Notes under the pieces: model-generated
Told to the model about the DNA's origin: nothing
Databases searched by the model: none
What the model saw: the letters and a program-made list of their open reading frames with translations, nothing else
Position numbers and translations under genes: made by a program
Virus record (IMG/VR): IMGVR_UViG_3300022188_000006
Location: 92,276-156,275 of that record
Strand: one strand, 5' to 3'
Length of the DNA stretch: 64,000 nt
DNA from: a virus
Shown here: positions 1 through 31,905 of the stretch, piece by piece
Position numbering within the stretch: the first letter of the stretch is position 1
Layout: the number at the start of each line of letters is the position of its first letter

Positions 1-2191
1 TCACGGAATAGCCTGTCGCCGATTTCTGCGTCTGATTAGTCAGAGATAGGGTCGCACCGCTGACCAACGTGCCATTCCGATGAACTTCGGCAACCCAGCT
101 CGCAATGTTGCGCGCACTCGCCGACATGGCAACCAGCTTGCAATTGTAAGGGATTACGAACCCATTCGAGCCGGTCGAAACACCATCAGCATAAAGGTAT
201 ATGTTCGAACTGTAATTTCTCCGGGCGGCCGTCAAACAGAACAAGCCACCCGCCGACTGCGGTCCCTGGTAACCCTGGCTGCCCTGAAATCCATTGGCAC
301 CTGTCTCGCCCTGAGGACCCTGACTGCCTTGCGGCCCCGGATTCGTACCCTGTGGTCCCTGAACACCCTGAGGACCGTAATCACCAGATATTCCCTGCCA
401 GCCCTGAGGCCCCTGGAACCCTGTCGGCCCCTGCACACCTTGACTGCCAGCAGCACCCTGTGCACCTTGTGGACCAGCGGCACCGGGGGGTCCAGCAACT
501 CCTTGCGGTCCAGCGGAGCCAACAGGCCCTTGAAAGCCGGTATCGCCCTGAACCCCTTGTGGTCCCTGTGGACCCTGCGGGCCGGGATTGGTGCCCTGCG
601 GGCCTTGTACGCCCTCGCCCTGCGGCCCCTGCACACCCTGCGCACCTTGCGAACCGAGATCGCCTTGATTACCCTGTTCGCCCTGCGGCCCCAAACCACC
701 TTGTGGACCCTGAACGCCTTGCGGCCCCGAATCCCCTTGAGGCCCTTGAACACCGCTTCCCTGCCAACCCTGCGGCCCTTGGTTTCCTTGTGAACCGGAA
801 ACACCTTGACTACCCTGAACACCGGCATCACCCTTCACCCCTTGCGGACCCTGCGCGCCGTCAGCACCAACATCGCCTTGTGGGCCAATAGACCCTTGGA
901 CGCCTTGAGCCCCTTGCACCCCTTGAACACCCTGTGGACCCTGGACTCCTTGTGTGCCAATTCCTTCGGCACCCTGCACGCCCTGAAATCCCTGTGCGCC
1001 TTGGTAACCAATAGCTCCCTGGTAGCCCTGCGGACCTCCAACGCCCTGTGGACCTTCCTGACCCTGGTACCCGATTGGACCCTGGTTGCCGTCTATGCCC
1101 TGCGGACCTTGATCACCTTGAAACCCGGTTGGACCTCTTATGCCTTGGGGTCCCTGACGACCTTGGTAACCTTGCGGGCCTTGAACACCCTGAGGGCCGG
1201 TATCTCCGGTTTGCCCCAGACCCTGCGGACCTTGCACGCCTTGGGAACCGGTTGGTCCAGCATCTCCTTGTGCACCCTTTTGCCCAATTGGCCCCTGTAC
1301 GCCTTGAGGACCTTGGTTTCCCTGAATCCCCGGTGTTCCTGGATCTCCTTTGAAACCTTGCGGGCCTTGCGGCCCAATCTGCCCGTCAAGTCCTTGTGGC
1401 CCTTGCATACCCTGCGGGCCTAGACCTTGAGGCCCCTGGGAGCCTGTTTCGCCGATATCGCCTTGCGGCCCAAGAGCGCCTTGCGGTCCTTGTGCCCCCT
1501 GCGCACCAGAAACACCCTGTGAGCCTTCCTCGCCCTGAGGTCCAGTCGCCCCTTGCGCACCTTGGTACCCGTAACCTTGTGGCCCCTGGGCACCTTGTGG
1601 CCCGAAGTCTCCCTGCGCTCCCGTATCTCCCACAGATCCCTGAGGACCAATCGAGCCGGTATTTCCCTGGGGACCTGCAGTGCCCTGCGGGCCTTGTGGA
1701 CCGGCTTCTCCTTGGTAACCCTGCGGGCCACGAAGACCAAGTGGCCCCTGCGCGCCAGTGTCCCCCTGGGCACCCTTGCTACCTTGGACACCCTGGTTTC
1801 CTATCGGCCCCTGATTCCCCGCAACACCTTGCCAGCCGCGAACTCCCTGTGGCCCCTGAACACCCTGGACACCTTGCGGTCCCTGAATACCCTGAGCACC
1901 ATCAAGGCCATCAACACCGTCAGCTCCGGAAGGCCCTTGGACACCCTGCGGACCGGAAATCCCTTGAGGTCCTTGCGCGCCTTTCAAACCTTCAAAACCC
2001 TGTGGACCTTGAACACCCTGCGGGCCTATTTGCCCCGTATCACCTTGCGGCCCCTGAGCACCTTGAAATCCATACCCCTGCGGACCCTGTGGACCTGGGT
2101 TGGTGCCTTGAGGCCCTTGAGGTCCGAGCCCCGTGACCTTCCTCCTAACACCGAATCCGCGTTCTCCGCGGGGAACATGCGAGACCGGCAT
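1..2191 (-). CDS. Collagen-like (G-X-Y, mostly G-X-Q) fibre protein, >730 aa, 3' end runs off the window; beta-rich C-terminal domain begins near nt 255
   Basis: Not in the ORF track (no stop in window). Manual translation from ATG 2191: [50 protein letters not shown]...; the same frame at the far end reads [28 protein letters not shown]... Confidence 0.93.
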
Positions 2192-2608: not shown

Positions 2609-3793
2609 CTACAGTCTGCCGAGACGATAAAGCGCCTCCGTGACATCCGCATACATCCAGGGTATCGAAAAGTATCCACAAGTATAGTTACCCGAACTAT
2701 CACGACCGCTGACTAGCAGCTTGACATCAGCCTCGTCACCGGCACCAGAGAACCTATTTTCGAAGTCGACAACGGCCGACGGAGTATAGCACCTTTGCTC
2801 GCGCCACGTGCCGCTTACGCGACCAAACAGCGGCCCTTGAATCGTCAGCTTTGCCCAATCGAGTCCGTCATCCGAAACAGCCACTCCAATGCCCTCGTGT
2901 AGTGCGCCGGCTCCTCCGGAATAGAACATCATCCACTTTCCGAGAGTAGTCCGGAACACACTACAAGCACCTACGTAGCTGGAATCCCACGGAACAGGAT
3001 TGCCCCAGACGGTACTGCCATGGTCCAGTACCTTGTTATACAAAGAAAAGGTAACACCATCAGGGCTATAACCGAGTCCAATGGACTCAAAAGCACCGGT
3101 GGTGCCATCAAAGAACAGGACGTAGCTGTAGTCGTAGGGATTGCTACCGGAATTGCTAGCACCACTGTTGTAGATCACCGCGCAGGGACCATAGGAGCCG
3201 CGGTTCCAATCCGGATGTGTTCCTGTGACAATCGGAACAGCACCGTTTTGCAGCGGCTGATCATTACTCCAGTTAAGCAGGTCAGACGACTCAGCGGTCC
3301 TGATAGCCTGCACAGAGTATAACTGCGACGTGTCCCAGTAATAGATTCGGAAAGAAGAAGCTCCCGTTTGGACGACCTGGGAATGGTGTGCACCGGACGG
3401 CAAGCCGACAACAGGGTTACCGCCATTCAGGCGTGTCCACGTCGTGAAGTCGTTACTACCGGAAATAATGATGCCTCCACCGGCGTCCACGTCCGAAGAA
3501 TGTAGACACACGTATTTGTAAGCAGTCCCGGCGATGTCGAAGCCATCAGCGAAGTACAGAAGAGTCGGATAATATGCCCTGTCAACCGGAGGGTCGAGCA
3601 CAGGATTCTGATCGTATTCTTCTGGCAAGGCTAGGACCTTCCCGCCACCAGTAACATCCCAAACGCGCTGAAACCCGCCTTGTATGCTGTCACGGAGACG
3701 CTCCATCTCGGCTACCCAGGGCGTCAAACGGCGCTGACCTCGGTTAAGCTGGATCTCCTGTGATCCTCTGTGGTAGAATTGCTGCTGCGTCAT
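2609..3793 (-). CDS. Five-bladed beta-propeller glycoside-hydrolase-like protein (GH32/43/130-type fold)
   Basis: Repeated blade motifs SNDFTTW, SSDLLNW, SPDGVTF, SDDGLDW; WDSSYVG; MFYSG..GIGVAVS. Confidence 0.75.
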   Translation of the reverse strand: MTQQQFYHRGSQEIQLNRGQRRLTPWVAEMERLRDSIQGGFQRVWDVTGGGKVLALPEEYDQNPVLDPPVDRAYYPTLLYFADGFDIAGTAYKYVCLHSSDVDAGGGIIISGSNDFTTWTRLNGGNPVVGLPSGAHHSQVVQTGASSFRIYYWDTSQLYSVQAIRTAESSDLLNWSNDQPLQNGAVPIVTGTHPDWNRGSYGPCAVIYNSGASNSGSNPYDYSYVLFFDGTTGAFESIGLGYSPDGVTFSLYNKVLDHGSTVWGNPVPWDSSYVGACSVFRTTLGKWMMFYSGGAGALHEGIGVAVSDDGLDWAKLTIQGPLFGRVSGTWREQRCYTPSAVVDFENRFSGAGDEADVKLLVSGRDSSGNYTCGYFSIPWMYADVTEALYRLGRL

Positions 3794-4116
3794 CCGACCA
3801 CCCCCTCAAAAATGGCAGCGTAAGCGGCATCCTCTGCGTCCAGCTTCGTCCGCAACCGATCACGCGGAGAGAAAAGGAACTGCTGCCCCCGGGCCACCTC
3901 TGCAAATAGGTATGTGTTATTTACGGACCTGTGCACCTTTTCCAGCACTTCTCCCGCTGGCGCCTTCAGGTCGATTCCATCCATCCAATCCTCGTCAGCG
4001 CGTCCTCGCAGCAATACCGCCTTTCCGTCCTTGACAGCCCATTCCTGGACGATCACACAATCCCGTGTGCGCGGGTTTTGCTCGTAGACGGTCATGACAA
4101 CATTACCAGCGGCCAC
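3790..4116 (-). CDS. Hypothetical protein, putative partner/immunity protein of kinase 4103-4933
   Basis: Overlaps the kinase stop; similar to the C-terminal domain of 15547-17430. Confidence 0.7.
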   Translation of the reverse strand: MAAGNVVMTVYEQNPRTRDCVIVQEWAVKDGKAVLLRGRADEDWMDGIDLKAPAGEVLEKVHRSVNNTYLFAEVARGQQFLFSPRDRLRTKLDAEDAAYAAIFEGVVG

Positions 4117-4933
4117 CTAGTTTCCTCCATGTCCGCATTTTCTTGAGTTCCGAGTGACGCTTGAGAACCCCGTCTAGCTCACGGTCGCCCATTCGTGCCT
4201 CAGTCATTGCTTCCGCAACAGCCTCTAAGTCGGCCTTCTCCAGTATCTGCCGGACATCCTCGGTTATTTCTTTGCCGACGAGTCTCCGCCCAATCACAGA
4301 AAGCATATGCGTCCTGTCATCGCCGGAGGTAAAGGCGTAACCGTTGTCTATAGCGTAAATCCGCTTCTGCGGATCCACGAGCAGATTGCTTGCATGTCGG
4401 TCAATCTGTCCGCAGATAAAGTCGAATGCAGCACAACGATGAAACCAGGGATTTTCTGGATGCTGCCGATAATCGTATCGCCCCGACCGGCGTAACTCAC
4501 TCAACAATGGCAACCTGACCCACGCCATCATAGAACCGGAACCTTCATTGTCTAGCGTTCTGCCGACAACAGGGGGGACCAGGTCGAACCCATATATCCG
4601 GTCCAGCTTATACACCAGAAGCTCTCGCTCCGAAGGGCTCACCTTCGGATCCATTGCCGACAAGTACCGCCCGGTCTCATATCTAAACTCGTGCTTCTTA
4701 AATACAGCCTGTGTACAGTCGATAAAACCCTTGCGGAACGAAGTTTTCAATCTAACTCTCAAGGGACGATGGATCCCCTTGCCGATGGGCTCAGAGTACA
4801 GCTCTTCCGCCTGGGTTAGCACCAGACAACATTTGGCGTGGTCCAGATCGTCCAGACCCTTATCAAGATCAGCCGGCGCGAAGCCGGCCGACCTCCGCAT
4901 ACCGGAGAGTAGCCCACCAGTCAGCGCGTTCAT
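4103..4933 (-). CDS. PI3/PI4-kinase-like (HipA/CtkA-related) kinase
   Basis: AVFK, ERELLVYKLD..VPPVV, FDFICGQIDRHASNLL, IYAIDNGYAF. Confidence 0.85.
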   Translation of the reverse strand: MNALTGGLLSGMRRSAGFAPADLDKGLDDLDHAKCCLVLTQAEELYSEPIGKGIHRPLRVRLKTSFRKGFIDCTQAVFKKHEFRYETGRYLSAMDPKVSPSERELLVYKLDRIYGFDLVPPVVGRTLDNEGSGSMMAWVRLPLLSELRRSGRYDYRQHPENPWFHRCAAFDFICGQIDRHASNLLVDPQKRIYAIDNGYAFTSGDDRTHMLSVIGRRLVGKEITEDVRQILEKADLEAVAEAMTEARMGDRELDGVLKRHSELKKMRTWRKLGGRW

Positions 4934-4969: not shown

Positions 4970-5425
4970 TCATTCGACTTTGAACGTGTGCGTGTGGCCG
5001 TCTGCCTCCTCAACGAGGCCGACCACCTTCACGTCATGCGTGTGGCCGTCGACACTGTCGGTCTTACCGTAAATGACACGCATATCTTTATCCACGAGGG
5101 CTACCACCCTGTGGCAGTGTCGGACCCCGTCTACACCGGCGTCCTGCGTAGTAATCGCCTCGATTTTTCGTTGCCCCGCTTGCTCACGAGCAAACGGCAT
5201 ACTGCCCGTGGTGCATGTGTTGTCCGGCGTGCCCGGACAGTCCACTTCGTTTTCGGCTGCAGCACCTATCCGCAGTCCTTCCCCGTAGGCATTATACCTC
5301 TTGAAGAAGAGAAGCCCAGAGTCGACAGCCACCAGCTCCCAACTAGCCCGACCTAGCTTCTCCAGCGTCGCAGTCAGGTCTCCACATTCAGACAAACTGA
5401 CCGTGTAGTAGTCCCATCCAGGCAT
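4970..5425 (-). CDS. DUF4177-like N-terminus plus His-rich (YmaF-like DGHxH) repeats
   Basis: WDYYTV..LEKLGRASWELVAV; HCHRV, DGHTHDV, DGHTHTF. Confidence 0.6.
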   Translation of the reverse strand: MPGWDYYTVSLSECGDLTATLEKLGRASWELVAVDSGLLFFKRYNAYGEGLRIGAAAENEVDCPGTPDNTCTTGSMPFAREQAGQRKIEAITTQDAGVDGVRHCHRVVALVDKDMRVIYGKTDSVDGHTHDVKVVGLVEEADGHTHTFKVE

Positions 5426-5451
5426 CGCTGCAACCCCCGTTAGATGCTTGA

Positions 5452-5488
5452 GGTCAGGCTGACCGGCCGAAACCGGTCAGCACTGACC
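5452..5488. other. Strong intergenic stem-loop without U-tract
   Basis: GGTCAG-GCTGACCGG-CCGAAA-CCGGTCAGC-A-CTGACC. Confidence 0.5.
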
Positions 5489-5494
5489 GAATCC

Positions 5495-5839
5495 TCAGAC
5501 GCGAGTCGGGCGCGCCCAAGCTCCGAATTGTCCCGGCGCAACACCGACCTGACCACCGCTCCTGGCCACGGAACTGACCACCTTCGGACCGTAGGCGGTC
5601 TCGCCACGTTCCACAGCGATCACCTTGCGAGCGTCCGCGTTGTTGCCCTGGCGAGCCAGATCGGCCATCTTGTCGGCCTCCGCAGGCGGCACACCGGCAG
5701 GGCCAGCATTCGGGATATTCGAATCCACAGGCGGCTGATCGGCGGGCTTTGTCACCATCTTGCTGATTTCCCCGCGCGCTTTACGCGCCTTCGAAACGGC
5801 GCCAGTTCCACCACGAGCAATTGTCGCCTTACCCATCAT
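5495..5839 (-). CDS. Hypothetical protein
   Basis: 114 aa, RBS GGAGG, overlaps the upstream stop. Confidence 0.65.
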   Translation of the reverse strand: MMGKATIARGGTGAVSKARKARGEISKMVTKPADQPPVDSNIPNAGPAGVPPAEADKMADLARQGNNADARKVIAVERGETAYGPKVVSSVARSGGQVGVAPGQFGAWARPTRV

Positions 5840-6180
5840 TCATCCTCCTTGCTTGACTTGACCCCTTCAAACCTGAAACCAGGACAATTTGGGGTCGGAG
5901 AGTCTGGAAATCCTCTACAAATCTGCGGCCTGTCCTCGTAGATGGTACAAACCGCTTCTCCGTTTTCCCACTTCAGAGCGGAACACCTCGCTTCGAAAAT
6001 AACTTCTGCTTCCCGCTCGTTGATCTGTTTGACCGAGACACCTTCGTGCAGGGCCGCCCAGCGTAGAAAATCTTGGGCTGCTGCCATCTCTAAGTCAGTC
6101 GTGGCACCCTCCATTCCAAACTTCAGGACCACCTTCTTGCAACAGTTGCCACACCGCAAGCACTCACCGGTTCTTTCCAT
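5836..6180 (-). CDS. YkgJ-family (CxxCxxCC) cysteine-cluster protein
   Basis: CLRCGNCC ... CSAL ... CTIYEDRPQICRGFP. Confidence 0.85.
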   Translation of the reverse strand: MERTGECLRCGNCCKKVVLKFGMEGATTDLEMAAAQDFLRWAALHEGVSVKQINEREAEVIFEARCSALKWENGEAVCTIYEDRPQICRGFPDSPTPNCPGFRFEGVKSSKEDE

Positions 6181-15068: not shown

Positions 15069-15572
15069 CTATCCTGCCATTTGCAAGGTGTCGCCTACCT
15101 GCCGAATCCGGCCGGACTTAACAAGTACCTCCACCACCTCAGGAGCAACAGGATTTCTTTTACCATCAACACGCACAAGTACCGGTTGCGTCCCCATGGC
15201 CCTGTGCACCATTGTTATCCTGGCGTCATTTTGCAGAAAGAACATGAGATGGTTCGGATTCCTTATGATTCTTCCATCTGGATAGATCGGGGATCTGGCT
15301 GTCGATAGAGTCTTTGTCCTCGGCTCAAACAGCGTTTCCTTTGACTCAGGTTCTTTTCCTGCTACAGGTTCGCTTTTGCTTCCAAGAACACCGAGAACCT
15401 TGTCCAGCGCCTGCTCCACTGCACGCTCAGCCACTGCTATGTTTAGAGCAGGCGCAATTCTAGTCTTTTGCTCCGCAGGTCCTTTGTCCGCAATGACCGC
15501 GGTCCCGGCAGCACGAAGATTTTCTCCGTCCCAGACAAAATTCGTCTCATTCTGAACCCGGCGCATTGGCAT
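15069..15572 (-). CDS. Hypothetical protein
   Basis: Fills the gap between kinase and HTH genes; start uncertain. Confidence 0.55.
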   Translation of the reverse strand: MPMRRVQNETNFVWDGENLRAAGTAVIADKGPAEQKTRIAPALNIAVAERAVEQALDKVLGVLGSKSEPVAGKEPESKETLFEPRTKTLSTARSPIYPDGRIIRNPNHLMFFLQNDARITMVHRAMGTQPVLVRVDGKRNPVAPEVVEVLVKSGRIRQVGDTLQMAG

Positions 15573-17430
15573 TCGTCCGAGGAACAATTCTGACCATCGA
15601 ACCACAAAAACTCAAGGGCAGATCCTGCACAAACTTCTCTGGGGTGTTCGTCGTAATTCGCTCGCCCAGGGGTCCCAGGTAACCGCCCATTACGTACTCC
15701 ACAAGCGGATTTTCCTCGCCGCTGAGCACCACAACCTTGTCACCCTTTAGGGCGATCTCCCCGACAAGCTTTTGGTCTTTTCCAGCACCGGTGTAGACCT
15801 GCATAATCTCAGCGTTCTCAGACTTCAATATGAAGTCCTCTAGTTGGCGCAGAGCCATCGCAACAGTAGCCATCTCTGCCGCGTGTGGTTTCGGTTTAGG
15901 TGGCTTAGGTGTCTGGAGAGACCTTGCTCCCATGGCAAGCTCTACCATGTTCAACGTGCGAGGTAACCTGCCTTTCTCCTTTATTCGCCTAAGACGCGCA
16001 ATGACACCGTTGGCTTCCTTACCTAGGCCCCATTTTTCCAAGGTTTTCTTTAGTTGTCCCTCGTCTACTTTTTGCAGCTGCGAGACGATCCGCTTGTCTA
16101 TCTTCCCGCCGTTGTACTCATGGGAAAGCCAGTGAGGCACAGACGTAAAACCGTGAAAATCGCCTCGTTCATCACTGATCGGGAAGTTGAACCCATTGTC
16201 GATCGCGAATGCTTGCTTTCGGTCAGCACTGACCAAGTAATTCCCGAAGTGCCTGTCTGTGGCCCCTGTAAGGTAGTCAAAGACGGCCATTTTTTCCACG
16301 GAAAACCTGAAATCAGGATCGTTTTCGAAGTGCATCTGCGTCTTCGCCCGTGAAAAGTCACTCCCGCTCATAGCCCCTTCGACAAAATGCTGCCTAGAAG
16401 CAGAAGCCTCCGGATTCAGTGCAGCCTCTTGCAGTTCCTTCAAGGCTTCTTTTGAGAGCTTATTTTCCTTGTAAGCAGCCTGGAGTTCTGGGTGCATCAG
16501 AACCTGCTTGACAACCCTTGCTCTATCCTCGGCCGCTACCTGCGTCTTTGTCTTTACTGTTGGCGGGACAATGCCGAAACCCAGCAACCTGTCCACCTCA
16601 AAAGCCGCCGCTTCGCGCGCCCCCACCGACACTTTTTCGTTGAGAATACCACGCCGCATGAAACTAATCGGTGGACCAAGTCCATCCGGCTTTGTTACGC
16701 TCTTGCTGCCATCAGGTGCCTGATCGAAGTAAACCAGTGTTCGGCTGTCAATGCCTGCTTGCTCCCGTTTCACCGGGTCAGAGCGCAGAGCTTTTTCTAC
16801 TTGCTCTAGGTGTCCTTCCCAAGGAGCTGACGAGAGTGCACCCTTCTTGTAAACAAAATCTCCCCATCCCGTCTCTTCGTCGTGCTTGGCCGGACCGGCC
16901 TCCCTCTCATCCAGCTTGTCGAGTTTTTCTGCTATCTCCCGCAATATGCCGTAAGCTTTCTGGATCTGCTCGGCATCCCCTTTCTTGAATCCATCACGCA
17001 AAAGCTGAGCAAACTCCTTCGCCCGTGTGCTAATCTGTTCCAGGACCTTCTTCTGATGCTCAGTAGTAGCCTTGGTTTTCATTTCGCGGAACCGCTCACC
17101 GAACTTCTTCATTAGTTCGGCAGACTTCCGCTTCAGGTCCGGTGTTGCCTGCCTCGACGATCTCAACTGTCGGACAACGCTCTCGACCTCCTGGGCCAGC
17201 TTCGATGTCTTCGGGGACGGCCCTGCCACGGTCTCAGTCTTTGCGCCCTTGGGCGGCGTGTCCGAATACTCATAGGTACCATCGGGCAATTTACGCCGCC
17301 AGAGATGGCGCTTCCTGCCCGTGCGTCCCTCTGGGTCTGGGGGCTCCCAATCACCGACCTTCGCTTTCAATAGCAGGCTAAACTGCGTCAGCGATTCAAC
17401 GATGGCTTCCCTGGAAAGATCCGCGATCAC
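15547..17430 (-). CDS. Multidomain protein: leader, hairpin, helical region, PI3/PI4-kinase-like domain, C-terminal partner-like domain
   Basis: SVTKP, AREAAAFEVDRLLGFGIVPPTV, FDYLTGATDRHFGNYL, AFAIDNGFNFP. Confidence 0.85.
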   Translation of the reverse strand: MIADLSREAIVESLTQFSLLLKAKVGDWEPPDPEGRTGRKRHLWRRKLPDGTYEYSDTPPKGAKTETVAGPSPKTSKLAQEVESVVRQLRSSRQATPDLKRKSAELMKKFGERFREMKTKATTEHQKKVLEQISTRAKEFAQLLRDGFKKGDAEQIQKAYGILREIAEKLDKLDEREAGPAKHDEETGWGDFVYKKGALSSAPWEGHLEQVEKALRSDPVKREQAGIDSRTLVYFDQAPDGSKSVTKPDGLGPPISFMRRGILNEKVSVGAREAAAFEVDRLLGFGIVPPTVKTKTQVAAEDRARVVKQVLMHPELQAAYKENKLSKEALKELQEAALNPEASASRQHFVEGAMSGSDFSRAKTQMHFENDPDFRFSVEKMAVFDYLTGATDRHFGNYLVSADRKQAFAIDNGFNFPISDERGDFHGFTSVPHWLSHEYNGGKIDKRIVSQLQKVDEGQLKKTLEKWGLGKEANGVIARLRRIKEKGRLPRTLNMVELAMGARSLQTPKPPKPKPHAAEMATVAMALRQLEDFILKSENAEIMQVYTGAGKDQKLVGEIALKGDKVVVLSGEENPLVEYVMGGYLGPLGERITTNTPEKFVQDLPLSFCGSMVRIVPRTNANAPGSE

Positions 17431-18851: not shown

Positions 18852-19064
18852 TTACGAACAAAGAGAATGAATGATCTCCTCCGTTCTTATCCTGCGTATC
18901 ACAATCTGCTTTCCAGCCCAGAGACTGGGTAAAGCTTCTCCGACAGGCTCCAACGCACCCGTGACCCACACGTACCACTTATTTGGGCGTTCTTCAACGA
19001 ATACTACGCCCGTCGTGGCACTGAGGGCCAGTTTATACAGATCCGTAGCGACCTTACTGTTCAT
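18852..19064 (-). CDS. Small hypothetical protein, weakly similar to 17430-17645
   Basis: YVWV...LPSLWAGKQIVI; overlaps the SOD stop. Confidence 0.5.
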   Translation of the reverse strand: MNSKVATDLYKLALSATTGVVFVEERPNKWYVWVTGALEPVGEALPSLWAGKQIVIRRIRTEEIIHSLCS

Positions 19065-19773
19065 GCCAGTTCCTGTCAGCAAAGCCCCAGTTGACGAGCT
19101 GTCTTACAGCCTTATTCAGGTACGACCGCCTATCGCTCTGATAGTCGAGATAGTAGGCATGCTCCCACAGGTCTATCGCGAGCAGCGGAGTCATACTCTC
19201 ATCCAGCAGTGGTCCCGCGGCATTTTCCCCGTAAACGACTTCTGGCTCTTCGTTTCTCTTGACCAGCCACAACCAACCGGAGCCAAAGAGTTTATCCCCC
19301 ATGTCTACCATGACACGCCGGCATTCTTCGGTCGAACCATATTTCCTTCGCACCGCAGACAGCAGATCACCTGTTGGCGCTGTGTCCTGACCAGGAGGGG
19401 ATATAGACATCCAATAGAATGCGTGATTCCAGGCTTCCCCCGCACGTCTGGCAAGCACCTTGTTCCCATCTGCTCCAGAAGAAATGAGACTTCTCAGATC
19501 TTCTTGCTCGAATCGAGTCCCGCGAACCATTTCCCTCACAAGATCCACGTACCTCTTGTGTATGCGAACGTGCGCCTCGATTGTATCCCTTGAGAGAGCG
19601 GGCGACAGCTCACCCATCTTGAAAGGTAATGCTGGCATCACTAGGCGGCCAGCAATGTCTGTAGCCGGCTGTTCGTTACCTTTTTGCTGCTTCACCTTTG
19701 TCACAAAGGCTGCATTGCTCCCCACAGATTTCAGGAGAGCCCCAAAACCTCCTAGACCAATGCCTGTCTGCAT
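19054..19773 (-). CDS. sodB: Fe/Mn superoxide dismutase family protein with N-terminal leader
   Basis: LPF...LSP..S..TIEAH, WNHAFYW, FGSGWLWL, DLWEHAYY; GGAGG before ATG 19773. Confidence 0.85.
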   Translation of the reverse strand: MQTGIGLGGFGALLKSVGSNAAFVTKVKQQKGNEQPATDIAGRLVMPALPFKMGELSPALSRDTIEAHVRIHKRYVDLVREMVRGTRFEQEDLRSLISSGADGNKVLARRAGEAWNHAFYWMSISPPGQDTAPTGDLLSAVRRKYGSTEECRRVMVDMGDKLFGSGWLWLVKRNEEPEVVYGENAAGPLLDESMTPLLAIDLWEHAYYLDYQSDRRSYLNKAVRQLVNWGFADRNWHEQ

Positions 19774-19844
19774 GCTCTCCTCCCATACACCGCCGGCAGA
19801 CACCGCCTAGCAGTATCAACCGAAGCAAACGCACTGTTATTTTA

Positions 19845-25890: not shown

Positions 25891-26958
25891 CTAAATAAAG
25901 CGAAGCGTCTCCGCTCTTTCAATGCACTTTCTGACAGAATCTTCATCCATGCCACAAAAATCCTTTTGCTTATATGATCCACTGTCGGCATCTCGTGCTG
26001 CACCGCACTTTCTGCATAGTATCTCCCTTCCAGAGGAAGACAATTTCAACCTAAAATCACCACATGCACAGGTCTCTGCAGGCCAGGCAACCTTCAGAAG
26101 GCATCTGTTCTTCAGTCGGTGAACAGCTTTCGCCATTCCACGTAAACCGGCGACATCCCAGTCGAGCGCGAGAACAATTGGCTTCTTCATAGATAACAGC
26201 TTTTCGGCCTGAATCGCTGAGACCTCGGCACCCATTACGGCCACCGCGTCAAAACCGCACTGCCTCAGCCAGATCGCGTCGAAAAAACCCTCCACAACCA
26301 GCATCTGGTCGGCGACACTCGCTAGGTGTTCACCATAAAGATATCGGCTCTTCTTAAAAGGAATCATCGGCAGATACTTGGGCCGCTGGTTCTCAAAAAT
26401 AGTCCTCGTCATTACACCCACAAGAGCCTTGTCGGCACTCCTCCTAACGGGAATCACGACCTTGCCCTCTTCCTTGTGATAACCCAGATCCCACAGCTTG
26501 CAGCTCTCCAGGGTTATCCCGCGGTCGAGGACGTAACGCGGAACCCTCCCAGAGAACGGCGCCAATTCTTCCTCTGAAAGTACCTCGTCAGGTTCTACAG
26601 CCACGGGAGCAAACTGATCCAACGTCCTATATTTTGTCTCCAAACTGGAGACACGTAGTGCCTCGCCCTCATGCTGCTCTACCAGCCTCAAAATCTCCGG
26701 AGGGATCAACATGCCAAGGCTCTGCAACCTACGGCAGAGCTTCTTCACCGAGCCGCCGGATTCTCCGCAAGCAAAGCAGTGATAGCGACTGCCCTGTCCT
26801 GGCTCAGAGATCTCTATACTGAATGATGGGTGGCGGTCCCTAAAATCCTTGTGCGTGAACCTGGCAAACGGACAGTTTGCAGAGATGTTTTTTTCTCTCT
26901 CTGATATCTTGCCGCAGCCCAGGCCCGAGAGGACCTGCCTTAGATGTGCTCTATCCAT
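25891..26958 (-). CDS. dnaG: DNA primase (Zn-binding + TOPRIM)
   Basis: CPF..H..D.HPSF..YHCFAC; VVEGFFDA; LALDWDVAG. Confidence 0.9.
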   Translation of the reverse strand: MDRAHLRQVLSGLGCGKISEREKNISANCPFARFTHKDFRDRHPSFSIEISEPGQGSRYHCFACGESGGSVKKLCRRLQSLGMLIPPEILRLVEQHEGEALRVSSLETKYRTLDQFAPVAVEPDEVLSEEELAPFSGRVPRYVLDRGITLESCKLWDLGYHKEEGKVVIPVRRSADKALVGVMTRTIFENQRPKYLPMIPFKKSRYLYGEHLASVADQMLVVEGFFDAIWLRQCGFDAVAVMGAEVSAIQAEKLLSMKKPIVLALDWDVAGLRGMAKAVHRLKNRCLLKVAWPAETCACGDFRLKLSSSGREILCRKCGAARDADSGSYKQKDFCGMDEDSVRKCIERAETLRFI

Positions 26959-27013
26959 TCCCCTTGCTAACCAAACGTCGCCGCAGATGCGGCCCCCGTC
27001 TCTCCGTCACCGG

Positions 27014-27322
27014 TCAGAGCCGGCCCCATTTTTCCGTCACGTGTAGCACTTGCGTGCCCTCTGGTAGAAATACGAATACCTTCTTCTCTCTCCTCGCCGC
27101 TTCCGCCACTGACTCTTTCAAAGCCTTCATGGCCTCCTCGGAGACTTCCTTCGGAAGCGTAAGAAACACAAGATTCTCCAGCTCGGTCCGCCAACAGCGT
27201 ATCTCGTCCAGCTCGATACCTTCTCCGTCCAACGCCTTCAATCTGAGTGTCAGACCCTCTGGAGCATGCTTTTTGTCGAACTCGTCCATACTAGACTTAC
27301 CGCCCTCGTTTACAGCTTTCAA
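27014..27322 (-). CDS. Hypothetical protein
   Basis: ORF in operon; start uncertain. Confidence 0.55.
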   Translation of the reverse strand: MKAVNEGGKSSMDEFDKKHAPEGLTLRLKALDGEGIELDEIRCWRTELENLVFLTLPKEVSEEAMKALKESVAEAARREKKVFVFLPEGTQVLHVTEKWGRL

Positions 27323-27831
27323 GTAACTTTCCTGGCACGCGCTTCGATTTCCTCAAACATCGCAATAGCAATCATGCTGGCAAGCTTGTCACGGATTTCC
27401 CGTGTGTGCGTCCGATAAAATTCTTCCTGTTGTTCTGGCGTAGTGTAATCAGGGTTAATGTATCCAGAATCTAGCATCTCCTCCCGGTCTGCCTCTGCGG
27501 CTACCCGCCGCGCCACTTCCCAAAGCCACTTCGGAATTACATCGGAAACAAAACAAAGCTTGAACACGTCTTTCGTAACAAGCTGCCCCAGTCCATTCTC
27601 CTCTGCATCGCCATTACCGGCATAGATCGCATAGACCTCACCATCCGGGACATTAAGCCTGCGCCACTTCTTTGCCTCGCGAAACGAACGCCACACACGA
27701 GTTCCCCGAGACACGCTTGCCTCGGGGTCGTTCTTTATCCGCCGGTACTCCTGCCGGCTCAGCACCACATACATCGCGTCAGGCATCTTCATACGTGGGC
27801 GCCTCGGCCGCAACGACAACTTTCCTGTCAT
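27319..27831 (-). CDS. Hypothetical protein
   Basis: ORF in operon. Confidence 0.6.
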   Translation of the reverse strand: MTGKLSLRPRRPRMKMPDAMYVVLSRQEYRRIKNDPEASVSRGTRVWRSFREAKKWRRLNVPDGEVYAIYAGNGDAEENGLGQLVTKDVFKLCFVSDVIPKWLWEVARRVAAEADREEMLDSGYINPDYTTPEQQEEFYRTHTREIRDKLASMIAIAMFEEIEARARKVT

Positions 27832-28804
27832 CGGTCACCGGGCCATCACCCTTGTACTCCTTGCTGTTGGGGAGCGTAAAGAGTCCTTTGACCTGCTTTA
27901 ACGCCTGGTCGTAACTGTTGCCCATCACAATGACCGAGATGAACAGCTCTTTCAGGTGAGCGAAGGAAAGCCCCTCGGTATCGTCGACCCACCGGTCGAT
28001 ATCAGCGACCGCGACATCATCGTAGTTCTCGGCACCCTGCGAAAACAGGAACTTGAAGAATGCTTTCCGGCAGATCGGAGAAGGCGGTCCGAAGTAGTAT
28101 CTCCGGTCGAACCTGCTCGGTCTATTGATGATCCGCTCCCCCAGCCTCTCAGGGTAGTTCGTCGTCGCGATGTACACTACCTTCGAAACCCCAGAAACAC
28201 CGTCCAATAGGTTCAGCACCGTGCTCTCGCAAAACCGCTGTACTAGGGAGTCGATGTCTTCCAGGAGAACGATCAGAGGCACATCAGGCTGCACGTTCCT
28301 GACAGTCCGGAGCGCACTCACGAGCGTCTCCGGAGGGCAATCCCCAAGCAGCACGATGCCTCCACGGGAGACCAGCTGCGTGGTTAGTAGTTTTACAGCC
28401 GATGTCTTTCCTCCACCGGGAGGCCCGTGAAAGAGAATCCCACGCTTGTAGACCAGCCCGTAGTCGTGGAAAATCTGCTCCCTCTTCCAGAAATCCTCAA
28501 TGTGCTCTAGGACATCCGCAGCAAAGCTGTCAGGAAGAGCTGCGAGCTTTCCGCCACTATCCGGCATCCGAACAAAAATCAGGCCACGCTCCATGGTCAC
28601 CACAGGTTTGTACATGCCAGGCGGCAACTCGTTCTGCGTATGGCCGACCGCGGCAAACTCTACACCGTCATTAGACGCCCACTGCGTTGCTGTCAGTAGG
28701 CCGCCCCTCTTGGCAGTTCTGAGTACACGTAGCGCATCTTCCGGCGCCAGATGTATCCCAAACTCCTGCCGAAAGAAATCACTTACTTTTTGTTCGGCAG
28801 CCAT
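27779..28804 (-). CDS. AAA+ ATPase (BCS1-like)
   Basis: YKRGILFHGPPGGGKT, LLEDID, LNLLDG, ATTN, NRPSRFD. Confidence 0.88.
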   Translation of the reverse strand: MAAEQKVSDFFRQEFGIHLAPEDALRVLRTAKRGGLLTATQWASNDGVEFAAVGHTQNELPPGMYKPVVTMERGLIFVRMPDSGGKLAALPDSFAADVLEHIEDFWKREQIFHDYGLVYKRGILFHGPPGGGKTSAVKLLTTQLVSRGGIVLLGDCPPETLVSALRTVRNVQPDVPLIVLLEDIDSLVQRFCESTVLNLLDGVSGVSKVVYIATTNYPERLGERIINRPSRFDRRYYFGPPSPICRKAFFKFLFSQGAENYDDVAVADIDRWVDDTEGLSFAHLKELFISVIVMGNSYDQALKQVKGLFTLPNSKEYKGDGPVTDDRKVVVAAEAPTYEDA

Positions 28805-28812
28805 CTTGACCC

Positions 28813-29019
28813 CTAATCTGCGATCTTGACCTTTGTCGCGATCTTGCCCCTACGGCCATCTGTGAGTTCATATTCTACAGTCTGATTTTCCTGCAAGATA
28901 CGAAATCCCTCGCCGTCGATGCCGGTATAATGCACGAACACGTCGCTCCCGCCGTCATCAGGGATGATAAACCCGTAGCCCTTCTTTTTGTCAAACCACT
29001 TTACTCTTCCGCTCGGCAT
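28813..29019 (-). CDS. cspA: Cold-shock protein
   Basis: GRVKWF..KKGYGFI (RNP1), DVFVHY (RNP2). Confidence 0.95.
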   Translation of the reverse strand: MPSGRVKWFDKKKGYGFIIPDDGGSDVFVHYTGIDGEGFRILQENQTVEYELTDGRRGKIATKVKIAD

Positions 29020-29041
29020 TTGTGTTCCTTTCGAAGCTGCG

Positions 29042-29347
29042 CTATTCGATGTCGTTCAGGCCGCCCACAAGACCGTCGGGCTTCCTATCTAATAGTTTAT
29101 TCAGTTGTATCTCCTTGTACAAGTCTCCGACCTGTCCATCCTCTCTGAAGTCGAACCAGACAACCGTCTGACACTTCGCACAGGCGAAGAACATTCGGCT
29201 AACAAGCAACGGCCTCCCGTTGTCATCGAGCTCCGGGCCGGTCATATCGGCGTTGGGCCTGTGCTGATGCGCTTTGGTCCGAACGTACCGCATTTTTCGC
29301 TCGCACATTGGGCAGTAGACAACACGCTCAAATCTTAATCCGGACAT
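29042..29347 (-). CDS. Zn-ribbon hypothetical protein
   Basis: CPMC ... CAKC; RBS GAAAG. Confidence 0.6.
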   Translation of the reverse strand: MSGLRFERVVYCPMCERKMRYVRTKAHQHRPNADMTGPELDDNGRPLLVSRMFFACAKCQTVVWFDFREDGQVGDLYKEIQLNKLLDRKPDGLVGGLNDIE

Positions 29348-29369
29348 GGTTCTTTCCTATAATGAGCTG

Positions 29370-30152
29370 TCACGGCAGCCTGTTCTGCAAATACTCACCA
29401 ACCAATATACACGTCGGCGTATAACCAACGGTCTTCTTGACTCCGGCCTTGACGTACCGCTTGTAAGGCCAATTCTTGAAGGGCCAGGAACCCGGTTTTC
29501 TCTCTGCGAACGGCACCACCTGGTTGGTCTCCTCCTCGTGTCCCTCCGACCACCTATAGACATCTGGATACTCGACTCGACATTTCCGGCGAGCGATGTA
29601 AGAATAGAACGGGTTCTCCTCGCAAAGCCAGATGAGGCTTTTAGATGGCGTCTTACCGGTAACCAGGTAAGCCAGGAATACAGAGTTCACGTGCTGTCTC
29701 AGCCATGGAATCCAGCGTACCAGCCACCCAAAAGCGGGTCCACATCGCACCAACCATCTGGCCTTGTGCTTCACAAGAAACGGGTCCTGCAGCTTGGCGC
29801 CGCAGTCAATGGCAAACCGCAATCCGGCGGGTCCAGCGAAAGACTGCGCTTTCTTCTTGTACCAGAATTCCGGCATCTTCTCTGACCGAATCCAGTCAGC
29901 ACTGACCGGCATAGGAGCAAAATTCCGCGCGTCAGGACCAACCTCCAGCAAAACGCGCAGATACCTCTCCGCTTTCTCGGCTACCTCTTTGTCGCCCTCC
30001 AAGAGAGAAGCGCCGCAAAGCAACCCAACCCAAGCCATACCGTCTATCCAGTTGGTATACCCGAAAGGCACGACCTGGGAGAAATACCCATTCTCCTCCG
30101 AGAATGCTGACAACACAAGCTCCCTAGCCTCTTCCAGCTTGTTCTTGTCCAT
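29370..30152 (-). CDS. Hypothetical protein
   Basis: 260 aa ORF in operon. Confidence 0.65.
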   Translation of the reverse strand: MDKNKLEEARELVLSAFSEENGYFSQVVPFGYTNWIDGMAWVGLLCGASLLEGDKEVAEKAERYLRVLLEVGPDARNFAPMPVSADWIRSEKMPEFWYKKKAQSFAGPAGLRFAIDCGAKLQDPFLVKHKARWLVRCGPAFGWLVRWIPWLRQHVNSVFLAYLVTGKTPSKSLIWLCEENPFYSYIARRKCRVEYPDVYRWSEGHEEETNQVVPFAERKPGSWPFKNWPYKRYVKAGVKKTVGYTPTCILVGEYLQNRLP

Positions 30153-30164
30153 GGGATGACCTTT

Positions 30165-30419
30165 TTATTCCGGCCGGTATCTCTCAATCACAGCCAGCGC
30201 GTCCCTGGCGGCCTGTCGAAATCGCTCGTCCCCTTCCTGCTCTGCAATGTCTTGCAGGATCTTGGCCGCCACGAAGAAACTTCCAGTCCCAAACTGCCAG
30301 CCACTTGGTGTCTGCTCGACTCGGCAGTTACCTGCTTTTTCGTCGATAACGGCTACTAGCCCAAAATCTCCCTCATACCTACGCTTCGTTCTTCCGTCCT
30401 CAATGCTCACAGAGACCAT
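30165..30419 (-). CDS. Hypothetical protein
   Basis: 84 aa ORF in operon. Confidence 0.55.
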   Translation of the reverse strand: MVSVSIEDGRTKRRYEGDFGLVAVIDEKAGNCRVEQTPSGWQFGTGSFFVAAKILQDIAEQEGDERFRQAARDALAVIERYRPE

Positions 30420-30434
30420 CGTTCTTTTCCTTTC

Positions 30435-31424
30435 CTAAATAGAACCGGCTACAAGCGCACCGCGCGTGACCGTATACAGTGGGTCATCAGCGACCCTGAT
30501 GTCTTTCACCGGAATTGGAAACTGCAGACGCTCGAACACATCGGTGAACACCTTCACAAAACCATTCGGAGCCGAGGTTCCTCCGGCACTCACAATCGTG
30601 ACTGGCTCGCTAAAGTTCGGCATGTCCTTGCCTGCTTCGAACCTCCGCTTGATGTTCTCCAGTGAATACTGGATGGCAGCCTCATAGTAAGACCTAATAG
30701 CCGCCTGTTCTCTGCTCAGCTTTTCCCCGGTCAGGCTGAACGCCGGATCTTCCTTAATCGCCGTCATCCGCGGCTTCACCTCCCCACAGACCTGCGCCGC
30801 TTTTTCGTCGATGTAGTCTCCTGCCCGGGCGGAAGAAAAAGTTATCACAGGAACACTCTTAAACGCGACACAGACGTTGACCATGCCGCCACCCCAAGAA
30901 ATTCCAATCCCGGTAAACTGCTCGTCTGCCAGTTCTGCGAGGACCACCGCATGGCCCTCGGTCACGGGCACAGACTCGATCTGTCTTTTTTGTAGAATCC
31001 CTTCGATCACGGACTTGTGGAAAGTGCCGTCGAAGTTTGCGTCCACAGGATCCGCAGGCATCGAATAGCAGCACTTGTCTCCAGCTTCTGCGCCAGCGTC
31101 TGAAAGGAGCCTACCTATCATCCTGTCCATCATTGGTATGGCATCAGCCTCCCCAGAACTGATAACTCCAGACTGCATGGGCCGACGCACTTCCTTCCCA
31201 AATGTCTTCGCCAGCTCGAAAGCTTCGTCACCGGCGATATACAGCTTCCCGTCCAACTCAAACTCAGGGACGTTCATGGTGCCCAACATCCTCTTGCTGA
31301 ACGCATCGTTCGGAACCTCAAAGAATACGTTCCGCAGACTTGACACCTTCACATCTCCGTCCGAATCTTCCCACGCACAGACCAGCGTCGCTGTTCCTGG
31401 ATCCAAGGCCACAACCTTAGGCAT
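30435..31424 (-). CDS. Actin-like ATPase (MreB/MamK/ParM superfamily)
   Basis: Phosphate-1 ALDPGT, RRPMQSG, EGHA, phosphate-2 SWGGG, AGDYID, IKE, adenosine SAGGT. Confidence 0.85.
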   Translation of the reverse strand: MPKVVALDPGTATLVCAWEDSDGDVKVSSLRNVFFEVPNDAFSKRMLGTMNVPEFELDGKLYIAGDEAFELAKTFGKEVRRPMQSGVISSGEADAIPMMDRMIGRLLSDAGAEAGDKCCYSMPADPVDANFDGTFHKSVIEGILQKRQIESVPVTEGHAVVLAELADEQFTGIGISWGGGMVNVCVAFKSVPVITFSSARAGDYIDEKAAQVCGEVKPRMTAIKEDPAFSLTGEKLSREQAAIRSYYEAAIQYSLENIKRRFEAGKDMPNFSEPVTIVSAGGTSAPNGFVKVFTDVFERLQFPIPVKDIRVADDPLYTVTRGALVAGSI

Positions 31425-31905
31425 CGTTCTTCCCTCCGCGCAATTTTCTCAACAATTCCTTATTTCGGGCCACACCGGCCGTCTTGTCACCGCGAAGTTC
31501 TACCTCGTCGATATTTGTAGTCATCTCGGAACTGAACACCTCGGAAGCTAGAGCCTCCTTGATATTGGGAACGCCAGCATCACCGGAAACTGGGCTAGCC
31601 GTAGCCGGCACCGCAAGTCCCGAAAGTTTTTCCTCAAGCACTTCGGCCAGCATCTCCCGCAAAGCATTTGGATCCTGCTGTACACTGATACTTACCTCCT
31701 GCGGCGTTTTTTGTGCTGCGGATCCAACGGCTGCCAAAAACACCATTCGCATGACCTCTTTTAGTTCCGCCTTGTCCTTTTCGTTGAGGCTACGGAGCCG
31801 CGCCTTCTGTCGATCAAGGCGTGCCCACAATCTCTCAAAGGCTTCGACAGCTTCGTTATTCAACGCAGTTTCAGTTCCAGTGTCACAGCATTGCAGTGCC
31901 GGCAA
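31417..31905 (-). CDS. Hypothetical helical protein, possible actin adaptor
   Basis: Overlaps the actin start; amphipathic C-terminus ELLRKLRG. Confidence 0.55.
   Translation of the reverse strand: MPALQCCDTGTETALNNEAVEAFERLWARLDRQKARLRSLNEKDKAELKEVMRMVFLAAVGSAAQKTPQEVSISVQQDPNALREMLAEVLEEKLSGLAVPATASPVSGDAGVPNIKEALASEVFSSEMTTNIDEVELRGDKTAGVARNKELLRKLRGGKNDA

What the first reader, a model, noticed from the sequence alone, without database searches (positions are those of the whole stretch)
3790..4933. Kinase + small partner gene pair, with the partner domain recurring at the second kinase
SEEN: the 108-aa ORF coupled to kinase 1 aligns with the last ~90 aa of kinase 2: VMTVYEQNPRTRDCVIVQEWAVKDGKAVLLRG vs IMQVYTGAGKDQKLVGEIALKGDKVVVLSG, then PAGEVLEKVHRSVNNTYLFA vs PEKFVQDLPLSFCGSMVRI. 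Both kinases retain K, E, DRHxxN and IDNG. KNOWN: HipA-like kinases are often toxins with an adjacent antitoxin or immunity gene. INFERENCE: an unnamed immunity/regulator family specific to phage PI3/4K-like kinase effectors.
Basis: partly seen in the sequence, partly recalled or inferred. Interest (0 to 1): 0.8.

Follow-up and report, generated by a model that had tools for sequence, protein, structure and literature searches.

The report
Phage kinase with active-site partner domain
A large uncultivated phage carries six atypical protein-kinase-like genes, and a previously undescribed ~80-residue domain is encoded right after them, fused to one of them, or (in related phages) fused to a phosphatase; it is predicted to plug the kinase's catalytic cleft, which suggests a new built-in kinase regulator.

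Summary
The two genes are real. K1 (276 aa, 4103-4933, minus strand) is a type-II-PI4K/Fam20-like kinase. S1 (108 aa, 3790-4116) is translationally coupled to it and under purifying selection (dN/dS 0.11).

Its register is right, though. Both sequences join one undescribed ~80-aa domain family that I assembled from other phages:
- Family profile versus the S1 subfamily: hhalign 93%, score 41 against a shuffle maximum of 19.
- Family profile versus the K2 tail: 76-81%, score 32 against a shuffle maximum of 19.

The domain has no Pfam, PHROG or PDB match. In every whole-record scan it lies directly downstream of a kinase (7 of 7 hits in five other phages). The same genome has three more copies inside a four-kinase array. 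In K1-type cassettes elsewhere it is usually fused behind a capless HAD phosphatase (11 of 11 loci fetched without using the kinase).

A complex prediction supports K1-S1 binding: score 0.90, best control 0.38. It places the family's conserved G-[T/S]-Y motif in the kinase's catalytic cleft.

The most likely role is a cognate kinase inhibitor or regulator, analogous to HipS-HipT but unrelated in sequence. This is untested at the bench. First readers of this scan noted the same pattern elsewhere in this genome; none of those notes had been followed up.

The parts
4103..4933 (-). K1: 276-aa atypical kinase (type-II-PI4K/Fam20-like), with G-loop IGKGIHRP (50-57), K79, E86, D178-R-H-A-S-N183 and I195-D-N-G198
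   Evidence: PF00454 E 1e-5, 25.9 bits, just under the 27.1 cut-off; invariant columns in 20 orthologues; Fam20 hits in the PDB
3790..4116 (-). S1: 108-aa stand-alone partner domain. It is a divergent 'S1-type' member of the kinase-partner family, with conserved motif R63-S-V-N-N-T68-Y69-L-F-A-E-V74
   Evidence: one distant homologue, E 4e-16; family membership; predicted to bind K1; dN/dS 0.11
4124..4128 (-). GGAGG ribosome-binding site for S1 inside the 3' end of K1, 7 nt before the GTG start at 4116-4114. The K1 stop TAA is at 4105-4103
   Evidence: sequence read directly
15547..17430 (-). K2: 627-aa kinase of the same superfamily (DRHFGN, IDNG), with N-terminal leader-like helix, helical region, kinase domain, Pro/Lys linker and C-terminal partner domain
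   Evidence: (PF00454 E 5e-11, 43.4 bits, above the cut-off)
15586..15810 (-). K2 tail (residues about 541-615): partner domain fused in frame to the kinase. This is the only kinase-fused copy found
   Evidence: ranks next after true members; E 0.002-0.005 in 2683 ORFs; hhalign 75.5-80.9%, score 32 against shuffle maximum 18.8; no other fusion to a kinase
15886..15924 (-). Pro/Lys-rich linker (QTPKPPKPKPH) between the K2 kinase domain and the tail. No strong internal ribosome-binding site precedes the tail

Best explanation
S1 and the C-terminal ~80 residues of K2 are two divergent copies of one undescribed small domain. The domain has an N-terminal three-strand meander with a D/G-G hairpin, a short helix, then P-x-D-G-x-x-F-L-x-A-L and a C-terminal G-[T/S]-Y-L-[W/F]-A-E motif. 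It is genetically locked to phage kinases of the type-II-PI4K/Fam20-like kind.

Proposed mechanism. The domain binds its cognate kinase and lays the G-[T/S]-Y segment into the cleft formed by the glycine-rich loop, the ATP lysine region, the hinge, the DRHxxN catalytic loop and the IDNG aspartate. This keeps the kinase off as a plug or pseudosubstrate.
- S1 does this in trans for K1, and its translation is coupled to K1's.
- K2 carries its plug in cis behind a flexible linker.
- In most K1-type cassettes of related phages, the same domain tethers a capless HAD phosphatase to the kinase. That adds enzymatic reversal of phosphorylation.

Shown: family membership, genomic linkage, the three architectures, intact catalytic motifs, and purifying selection on S1.

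Inferred: physical binding (one controlled prediction), inhibition, and why a phage needs it. The purpose may be to keep kinases silent while they are made late and perhaps packaged.

My confidence by step: about 0.9 that S1 belongs to the family, about 0.8 for the K2 tail, about 0.65 for binding, and about 0.5 for inhibition.
For: Family
- An HMM built only from six partner ORFs of other phages finds the three small ORFs of this genome's kinase array (E 2.5e-7 to 1.5e-4). The K2 tail and S1 are the very next hits among 1011 ORFs.
- After iteration (24 members, neither S1 nor K2), both score E about 0.002-0.005 in 2683 ORFs.
- The same external HMM hits an S1-type HAD fusion (L049) at E 2.2e-6.
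- hhalign: core family versus S1 subfamily 93.4%, score 41.1, against a shuffle maximum of 19.4. Family versus K2 tail 75.5-80.9%, score 32, against a shuffle maximum of 18.8.

Linkage
- Whole-record scans of five other phage records (about 504 kb) give 7 partner hits. Each lies directly downstream, on the same strand, of one of the 9 kinase hits.
- Of 11 viral loci fetched with the HAD+partner protein alone, all 11 have a K1-type kinase whose end overlaps the HAD gene start by 25 nt.
- All 38 partner hits in the fetched loci have a kinase within 1300 nt upstream.
- In this genome, five of the six kinases have a partner adjacent or fused.

Fusions
- The domain is fused to the kinase in K2.
- It is fused to a HAD domain with motifs D-x-D-x-T, W-T, K and D-D conserved (PDB 2obb E 2e-11).

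Binding
- K1+S1 complex prediction: score 0.90, best of 3 controls 0.38. That mark was reached by 58 of 80 solved complexes and 2 of 110 mismatched pairs; the counts hold only roughly because my own alignments were used.
- The runs agree in at least 73% of contacts, and the partner's pLDDT is at least 71.
- S1 residues 63-74, especially T68 and Y69, touch K1 50-57, 77, 85-88, 138-146, 178, 180-183 and 195-196.
- Those S1 residues are the family's best conserved columns: T/S in 20 of 24, Y in 19 of 24. The K1 residues are invariant in 20 orthologues.

Gene reality
- S1 has dN/dS 0.11, and every change within residues 63-74 is synonymous.
- It has a strong ribosome-binding site and is translationally coupled on both sides.
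Against: - No experiment exists, and the binding evidence is a single in-silico prediction with custom unpaired alignments. The control that kept S1 and replaced the kinase still scored 0.38.
- Stand-alone AlphaFold2 models of S1 and of the K2 tail are poor (pLDDT 45 and 52), so the fold is unknown and no structural comparison was possible.
- K2-tail membership rests on 76-81% hhalign probability and HMMER E about 0.002. It lacks the Y of the motif (G-S-M).
- The T/S position is not invariant: G, N, D or R appear in some members.
- Several intact kinases have no partner: K3 and K4 here, and L010/L011, L030 and L039/L040 elsewhere. The kinases therefore cannot be unconditionally lethal without it.
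- A plug permanently fused to K2 needs a release step that is not shown.
Confidence: 0.6

Rival explanations
1. The partner domain is a genuine substrate or phospho-switch, or an activating or targeting subunit, rather than an inhibitor. The kinase would phosphorylate the conserved T/S of the G-[T/S]-Y motif, and the fused HAD phosphatase would reset it.
For: - A hydroxyl residue occupies the key column in 20 of 24 members.
- It is modelled next to the catalytic and metal-binding aspartates D178 and D196.
- Fusing a phosphatase to the very domain that enters the kinase cleft fits a write/erase cycle on that residue.
- Partner-less kinases exist, so the partner is not needed for survival.
Against: - The position is not invariant.
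- The modelled contacts also cover residues I take to line the adenine pocket (I50, V77, hinge 138-146, I195). That looks more like occlusion of the nucleotide site than substrate docking.
- This genome has no HAD domain at all.
Confidence: 0.2
2. The partner is an assembly or packaging chaperone or adaptor that escorts the kinases into the capsid or keeps them soluble, with no effect on catalysis.
For: - Kinases K2-K5 share an N-terminal leader-like motif, L..F..[LW]K[AQS]. It is enriched in the genome: 7 matches against 0.9 expected.
- K1 and K2 sit near the terminase and fibre genes.
- The partners are translationally coupled to the kinases.
Against: - Nothing shows that the kinases are packaged.
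- The predicted interface is the catalytic cleft, not a leader.
- The HAD fusion is not explained by this reading.
Confidence: 0.1
3. The S1 versus K2-tail resemblance is chance. S1 is just the surviving C-terminal piece of a decayed HAD-partner gene with no function of its own, and the K2 tail is an unrelated extension.
For: - The direct pairwise and subfamily-profile comparisons are not significant.
- The closest K1 relatives carry HAD+S1-type fusions, whereas S1 lacks the HAD part.
- The K2 fusion is a singleton.
Against: - S1 has its own strong ribosome-binding site, dN/dS of 0.11, and 48% identity to the fused form across the whole domain.
- Stand-alone partners are the rule for the larger kinases.
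- Family-profile scores for both sequences lie far above shuffles and above every other small ORF of the genome.
Confidence: 0.05

Closest known systems
HipBST toxin-antitoxin system (HipT kinase neutralised by the ~100-aa HipS; PMC10627512)
   Same: - A small protein of about 100 aa, encoded next to a kinase of the protein-kinase-like superfamily.
- Per that paper's abstract, HipS inhibits the kinase by inserting a conserved aromatic residue (Trp) into the active site.
- Here a conserved T/S-Tyr pair is predicted to enter the cleft.
   Different: - No HipA_C or HipA N-terminal Pfam match for the kinases or the partner.
- The partner is downstream of the kinase, not upstream.
- No HipB-like DNA-binding gene is present.
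- The setting is a phage structural or late region, with up to six kinases per genome.
- The partner also occurs fused to a HAD phosphatase or to the kinase itself.
Type II phosphatidylinositol 4-kinases / Pfam PI3_PI4_kinase (PF00454)
   Same: - K2 scores above the Pfam cut-off.
- Four more kinases of this genome also score above it.
- The DRHxxN catalytic loop and the AIDNG motif are present.
   Different: - Only the C-lobe core aligns.
- K1 is just under the cut-off.
- There is no evidence of a lipid substrate.
- The profile of K1 orthologues hits Fam20 kinases in the PDB instead.
Fam20 secretory-pathway kinases (FAM20A/B/C)
   Same: The K1-family profile matches FAM20A (E 8e-9), Fam20B (1e-5) and FAM20C (3.5e-5) over the R-E-x-x-A-Y...V-P-P segment. 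Fam20C is a protein Ser kinase.
   Different: - The match covers only about 30 residues.
- The Pfam Fam20C model gives E 0.26 for K2.
- There is no signal peptide or disulphide pattern.
Enzymatic antidotes tethered to a toxin-binding module (for example DarT-DarG), recalled from general knowledge and not tested here
   Same: The HAD+partner fusion would combine a binding or plugging domain with an enzyme that can undo the modification. It is encoded right after the modifying enzyme.
   Different: - The chemistry differs: phosphorylation rather than ADP-ribosylation.
- The folds differ.
- Toxicity of the kinase is not shown.
- The window's own phage has lost the HAD part.

Membership tests
Pfam PI3_PI4_kinase (PF00454) | Score above the curated gathering cut-off (27.1 bits) | tested here: met
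   K2 scores 43.4 bits. Four further kinases of the genome score 29-41 bits. K1 itself scores 25.6-25.9 bits, just below the cut-off.
Pfam PI3_PI4_kinase (PF00454) | Catalytic loop D-R-H-x-x-N and metal-binding Asp (I-D-N-G, as I recall for type II PI4K), plus the ATP-binding Lys | tested here: met
   K, D, H, N and I-D are invariant in all six paralogues and in 20 K1 orthologues. K3-K5 have D-G-H instead of D-R-H.
Pfam PI3_PI4_kinase (PF00454) | Phosphoinositide substrate | not testable with these tools
   Needs a biochemical assay.
HipA/HipT kinase toxins with HipB/HipS antitoxins | Kinase matches the HipA_C model; the small partner matches the HipA N-terminal subdomain | tested here: not met
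   No HipA model appears among Pfam hits at E up to 1 for K1 or K2. None appears at E up to 0.1 for 26 partner domains.
HipA/HipT kinase toxins with HipB/HipS antitoxins | Antitoxin gene upstream of the kinase, with an HTH regulator | tested here: not met
   The partner is always downstream of the kinase, on the same strand. No adjacent HTH gene was seen next to K1.
Fam20 kinases | Full-length similarity to the Fam20 kinase domain | tested here: inconclusive
   The PDB profile search hits FAM20A/B/C at 8e-9 to 7e-5, but over about 30 residues only. The Pfam Fam20C model gives E 0.26.
HAD phosphatase superfamily (for the domain fused to the partner in related phages) | Motifs I (D-x-D-x-T), II (S/T), III (K) and IV (D-D), and profile similarity | tested here: met
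   The motifs are invariant or nearly so in 11 sequences. PDB 2obb gives E 2e-11, with many other HAD entries. HAD Pfam models match 6-7 of 11 members. No HAD is present in the window's own genome.
MuF-type polymorphic phage toxins with downstream immunity gene | N-terminal MuF (Phage_Mu_F) domain on the toxin | tested here: not met
   No such Pfam or PHROG hit for K1 or K2.
New kinase-partner domain family (defined here) | Profile match to the family, and position directly downstream of or fused to a PI4KII/Fam20-like kinase | tested here: met
   S1. K2 tail: (weaker). Position.

The most novel reading that the evidence does not exclude
These phages carry a latent-kinase system. Several PI4KII/Fam20-like kinases would be made late and kept off by a dedicated active-site plug domain. 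In K1-type cassettes a plug-tethered HAD phosphatase would erase stray phosphorylation. The kinases would be switched on only when separated from the plug. For K2 that would mean cleavage at the leader-like L-E-D-F-I-L-K-S site before the tail, for example by the prohead protease, so that active kinase is delivered into the next host. K2 would then be a zymogen-like, self-inhibited kinase, a regulatory principle not described for phage proteins.
Probability: 0.2. Interest if true: 0.85.

Novelty: new variant of a known kind. Interest (0 to 1): 0.68.

Why it matters
Phage-encoded protein kinases are rare and poorly understood tools of host takeover. Here a whole clade of large environmental phages carries one to six atypical kinases, each tied to a dedicated, unannotated partner domain.

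If the partner is an active-site plug, it would matter in several ways:
- It is a new, compact, genetically encoded inhibitor scaffold for PI4K/Fam20-like kinases.
- It gives a clear handle for finding what these kinases phosphorylate, by expressing the kinase with and without its partner.
- It offers a natural kinase-phosphatase-plug cassette to study how phages keep dangerous enzymes silent during assembly.

It also gives domain databases a new family, with a simple genomic rule for recognising it.

Tried and rejected
- **Direct comparison of S1 with K2.** Smith-Waterman with shuffles gave p 0.023 against the tail and 0.17 against the whole protein. hhalign of S1+P0004 against the tail gave 8%, and of the five-member S1 subfamily 0.6%. 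The pairwise claim is rejected as significant on its own.
- **Three-member HMM of this genome's small ORFs.** It found neither S1 nor the K2 tail.
- **Word-index homology searches.** Searches for S1, the K2 tail and the three-member alignment returned only self hits. The exhaustive search for S1 found one distant homologue.
- **Close relatives of K2 or the region.** K2 has no close relatives in viral contigs. There is no DNA similarity of the region to deposited phages.
- **Stand-alone AlphaFold2 models.** S1 reached pLDDT 45 and the K2 tail 52, too poor for fold searches, so none was run.
- **ESM Atlas search with S1.** Only sub-threshold leads.
- **Library searches for the partner domain.** No hit in Pfam, PHROGs, PADLOC or the PDB.
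- **Metagenome scans.** The K1-orthologue alignment worked.
- **The 28%-identity group of metagenome hits (most of L051-L106).** The three examined sit in GC-rich, apparently bacterial contexts. Only L065 and L089 of this group carry a partner-domain hit, and the rest were set aside.
- **Literature searches.** Searches for phage PI4K/Fam20-like kinases with partners found nothing relevant.
Full report
**What is in the window**

The window is the last 64 kb of a 156,275-bp IMG/VR virus record, 89% complete by CheckV. An almost identical 162-kb assembly exists elsewhere. Nearly all genes are on the minus strand. The window holds a large terminase, ribonucleotide reductase, DNA polymerase, primase and a long collagen-like protein.

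S1 starts at a GTG seven bases after a GGAGG that lies inside the end of K1, and it overlaps the K1 stop. Its own stop overlaps the ATG of the next gene. Compared with a 93%-identical variant from another sample, S1 shows 18 synonymous and 7 non-synonymous codon changes, giving dN/dS 0.11. It is a real gene.

The second kinase, K2, is 15547-17430 (627 aa). K1 and K2 are homologous (E 5e-12). Both keep the Lys, Glu, DRHxxN and IDNG residues.

**The kinases**

K2 passes the Pfam PI3_PI4_kinase cut-off, and K1 falls just under it. No HipA model matches. A profile of 20 K1 orthologues hits FAM20A/B/C in the PDB over a short stretch. I therefore call them type-II-PI4K/Fam20-like atypical kinases, not HipA-like.

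The genome has six of them. The other four (487-519 aa) form an array at genome 26.7-33.8 kb, outside the window. That array is interleaved with three small paralogous ORFs of 91-119 aa.

Taken alone it is not significant:
- BLASTP finds nothing at that register.
- Smith-Waterman recovers block 1 with p 0.023 against the tail only, and 0.17 against all of K2.
- An S1-subfamily profile against the tail gives 0.6%.
- The three array ORFs did not link to either sequence at first.

**Building the family**

An exhaustive search gave S1 a single distant homologue: a 243-aa protein whose N-terminal half is a HAD-type phosphatase and whose C-terminal half is S1-like (48% identity, E 4e-16).

Searching viral and metagenome contigs with kinase alignments returned many loci. 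In these loci, the ORF that follows the kinase is again and again one of two things:
- a small protein of about 85-110 aa, or
- a ~190-260-aa protein made of a HAD domain plus a small C-terminal domain.

These small domains share three features: a three-strand meander with a D/G-G hairpin, a P-x-D-G-x-x-F-L-x-A-L segment, and a terminal G-[T/S]-Y-L-[W/F]-A-E.

The statistics are as follows:
- An HMM built only from six members of other phages finds the three array ORFs of this genome (E 2.5e-7 to 1.5e-4). The next two of 1011 ORFs are the K2 tail and S1.
- The same HMM hits an S1-type HAD fusion at E 2.2e-6.
- After iteration, with 24 members and neither S1 nor K2 included, both score E about 0.002-0.005 in 2683 ORFs.
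- In profile-profile comparison, the core family versus the S1 subfamily gives 93.4% (score 41.1). The family versus the K2 tail gives 75.5-80.9% (score about 32).
- Shuffled controls reach at most 19. The 94 other small ORFs of the genome reach at most 17.

S1 is therefore a divergent member: its NNTYLFAE corresponds to RGTYLWAE in the core family. The K2 tail is a probable member.

**Linkage to kinases**

- Whole-record scans of five other phage records found seven partner domains. Each lies directly downstream, on the same strand, of one of the nine kinase hits.
- When I searched viral contigs with the HAD+partner protein alone, all 11 loci had a K1-type kinase whose end overlaps the HAD gene start by 25 nt.
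- All 38 partner hits in the fetched loci have a kinase upstream within 1300 nt. Of these, 23 are HAD-fused and 15 stand-alone. None except K2 is fused to the kinase.
- The K1 cassette sits in a conserved block in many phages: a CxxCxxCC protein, a 114-aa protein, a 151-aa protein, K1, the partner, and then a 133-aa protein and a collagen-like gene.
- The partner is not universal. Several intact K1 orthologues, and K3 and K4 here, lack one.
- The window's phage has no HAD domain anywhere. S1 is therefore the partner stripped of the phosphatase that its closest relatives carry.

**The HAD part**

It has the four HAD motifs and matches a 142-aa minimal HAD structure (PDB 2obb, E 2e-11). From general knowledge of the superfamily, capless HADs tend to act on macromolecular substrates. 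This was not tested here. It would fit a protein phosphatase that reverses the neighbouring kinase.

**Mechanism**

Stand-alone models of S1 and the K2 tail were poor, though both show three strands followed by helices.

The complex prediction of K1 (20-row alignment) with S1 (26-row alignment) supports binding:
- The score is 0.90, and the best of three controls is 0.38.
- That mark was reached by 58 of 80 solved complexes and 2 of 110 mismatched pairs. The counts hold only roughly, because my own alignments were used.
- The runs agree in at least 73% of contacts, and the partner's pLDDT is at least 71.

The interface pairs S1 63-74, above all T68 and Y69, with these K1 residues: the glycine-rich loop (50-57), V77, the E86 region, 138-146, D178/H180-N183 and I195/D196. 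These are the best conserved partner columns and the invariant catalytic residues.

I read this as a plug or pseudosubstrate in the nucleotide and catalytic cleft. The nearest described analogue is HipS, which inhibits HipT by inserting a conserved Trp into the active site (PMC10627512, abstract). There is no detectable sequence relationship to HipS. No similar complex is known for this family, so the pass is unlikely to come from memory. It remains a prediction.

**Alternatives**

- The conserved T/S could be a real phospho-acceptor, making the domain a substrate or switch.
- The partner could be a packaging chaperone.
- The kinases K2-K5 share an N-terminal L..F..[LW]K[AQS] motif, with 7 matches against 0.9 expected. 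A similar LEDFILKS precedes the K2 tail. First-reader notes on this genome suggest protease processing and capsid delivery. I could not test that.

**Novelty**

The partner domain has no Pfam, PHROG, PADLOC or PDB match, and I found no paper on it. A small cognate inhibitor encoded next to a kinase is a known principle. What is new is the domain, its three architectures (free, kinase-fused, phosphatase-fused) and the phage setting with up to six kinases.

Noticed in passing
genome coordinates 26747-33777 (outside the window; loci L003-L006): Tandem array of four paralogous kinases (487-519 aa) interleaved with three partner-domain ORFs (119, 108 and 91 aa). K3-K5 have D-G-H instead of D-R-H in the catalytic loop. 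Four kinases share three partners.
   Followed up: partly
window 17350-17400 and 15808-15831; genome-wide: An N-terminal leader-like motif L..F..[LVIMW]K[ASGQ] occurs at residues 4-17 of kinases K2-K5 and of a 249-aa protein (window 19054-19803). There are 7 matches against 0.9 expected from shuffles. A similar LEDFILKS lies just before the K2 tail. It may be a processing or targeting signal.
   Followed up: partly
window 4970-6180 and 2198-2599: A conserved syntenic block surrounds K1 in more than 15 metagenomic phages. It comprises a CxxCxxCC zinc/iron protein (5836-6180), a 114-aa protein (5495-5839), a 151-aa protein with a protease-like C-terminus (4970-5425), K1, the partner, a 133-aa protein (2198-2599) and a collagen-like gene.
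   Followed up: partly
window 2-2191 (-): A very long collagen-like protein (more than 730 aa of G-P-Q-G-type triplets) with a non-repetitive C-terminal domain. It is probably a fibre, and related phages have one at the same place (L033).
   Followed up: no
window 2609-3793 (-): A 394-aa gene translationally coupled to S1 (ATGA overlap), with only a faint GH43-like hit. It is absent at this position in most related cassettes. A homologue lies upstream of the kinase in L035.
   Followed up: no
L028 1116-1661; L008 2-157: In the closest K1 relatives, a 181-aa lipoprotein-like gene (signal peptide ending in Cys) is inserted between the kinase and the HAD+S1-type gene.
   Followed up: no
L030, L032-L034, L036, L037, L039-L042, L045: A conserved ~80-aa gene starting MP(A/I)GGGDPK.IGDG follows the HAD+partner gene. 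In L039/L040, and about 100 nt downstream in L030, it follows the kinase directly where the partner is missing.
   Followed up: no
most of L051-L106 (examples L060, L081, L094): A large group of about 237-aa PI4K-like proteins. The three examined sit in GC-rich, apparently bacterial contigs next to a histidine-phosphatase-like gene. Most of the group has no partner domain (L065 and L089 do). These are distant cellular cousins of the phage kinases.
   Followed up: partly
L087 3983-4273; L069 1595-1906; L018 2977-3288; L043/L044 C-termini: Small ORFs or C-terminal domains right after kinases. They look like further, more divergent partner domains but fall below the HMM threshold, so the family is probably wider than counted.
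   Followed up: partly
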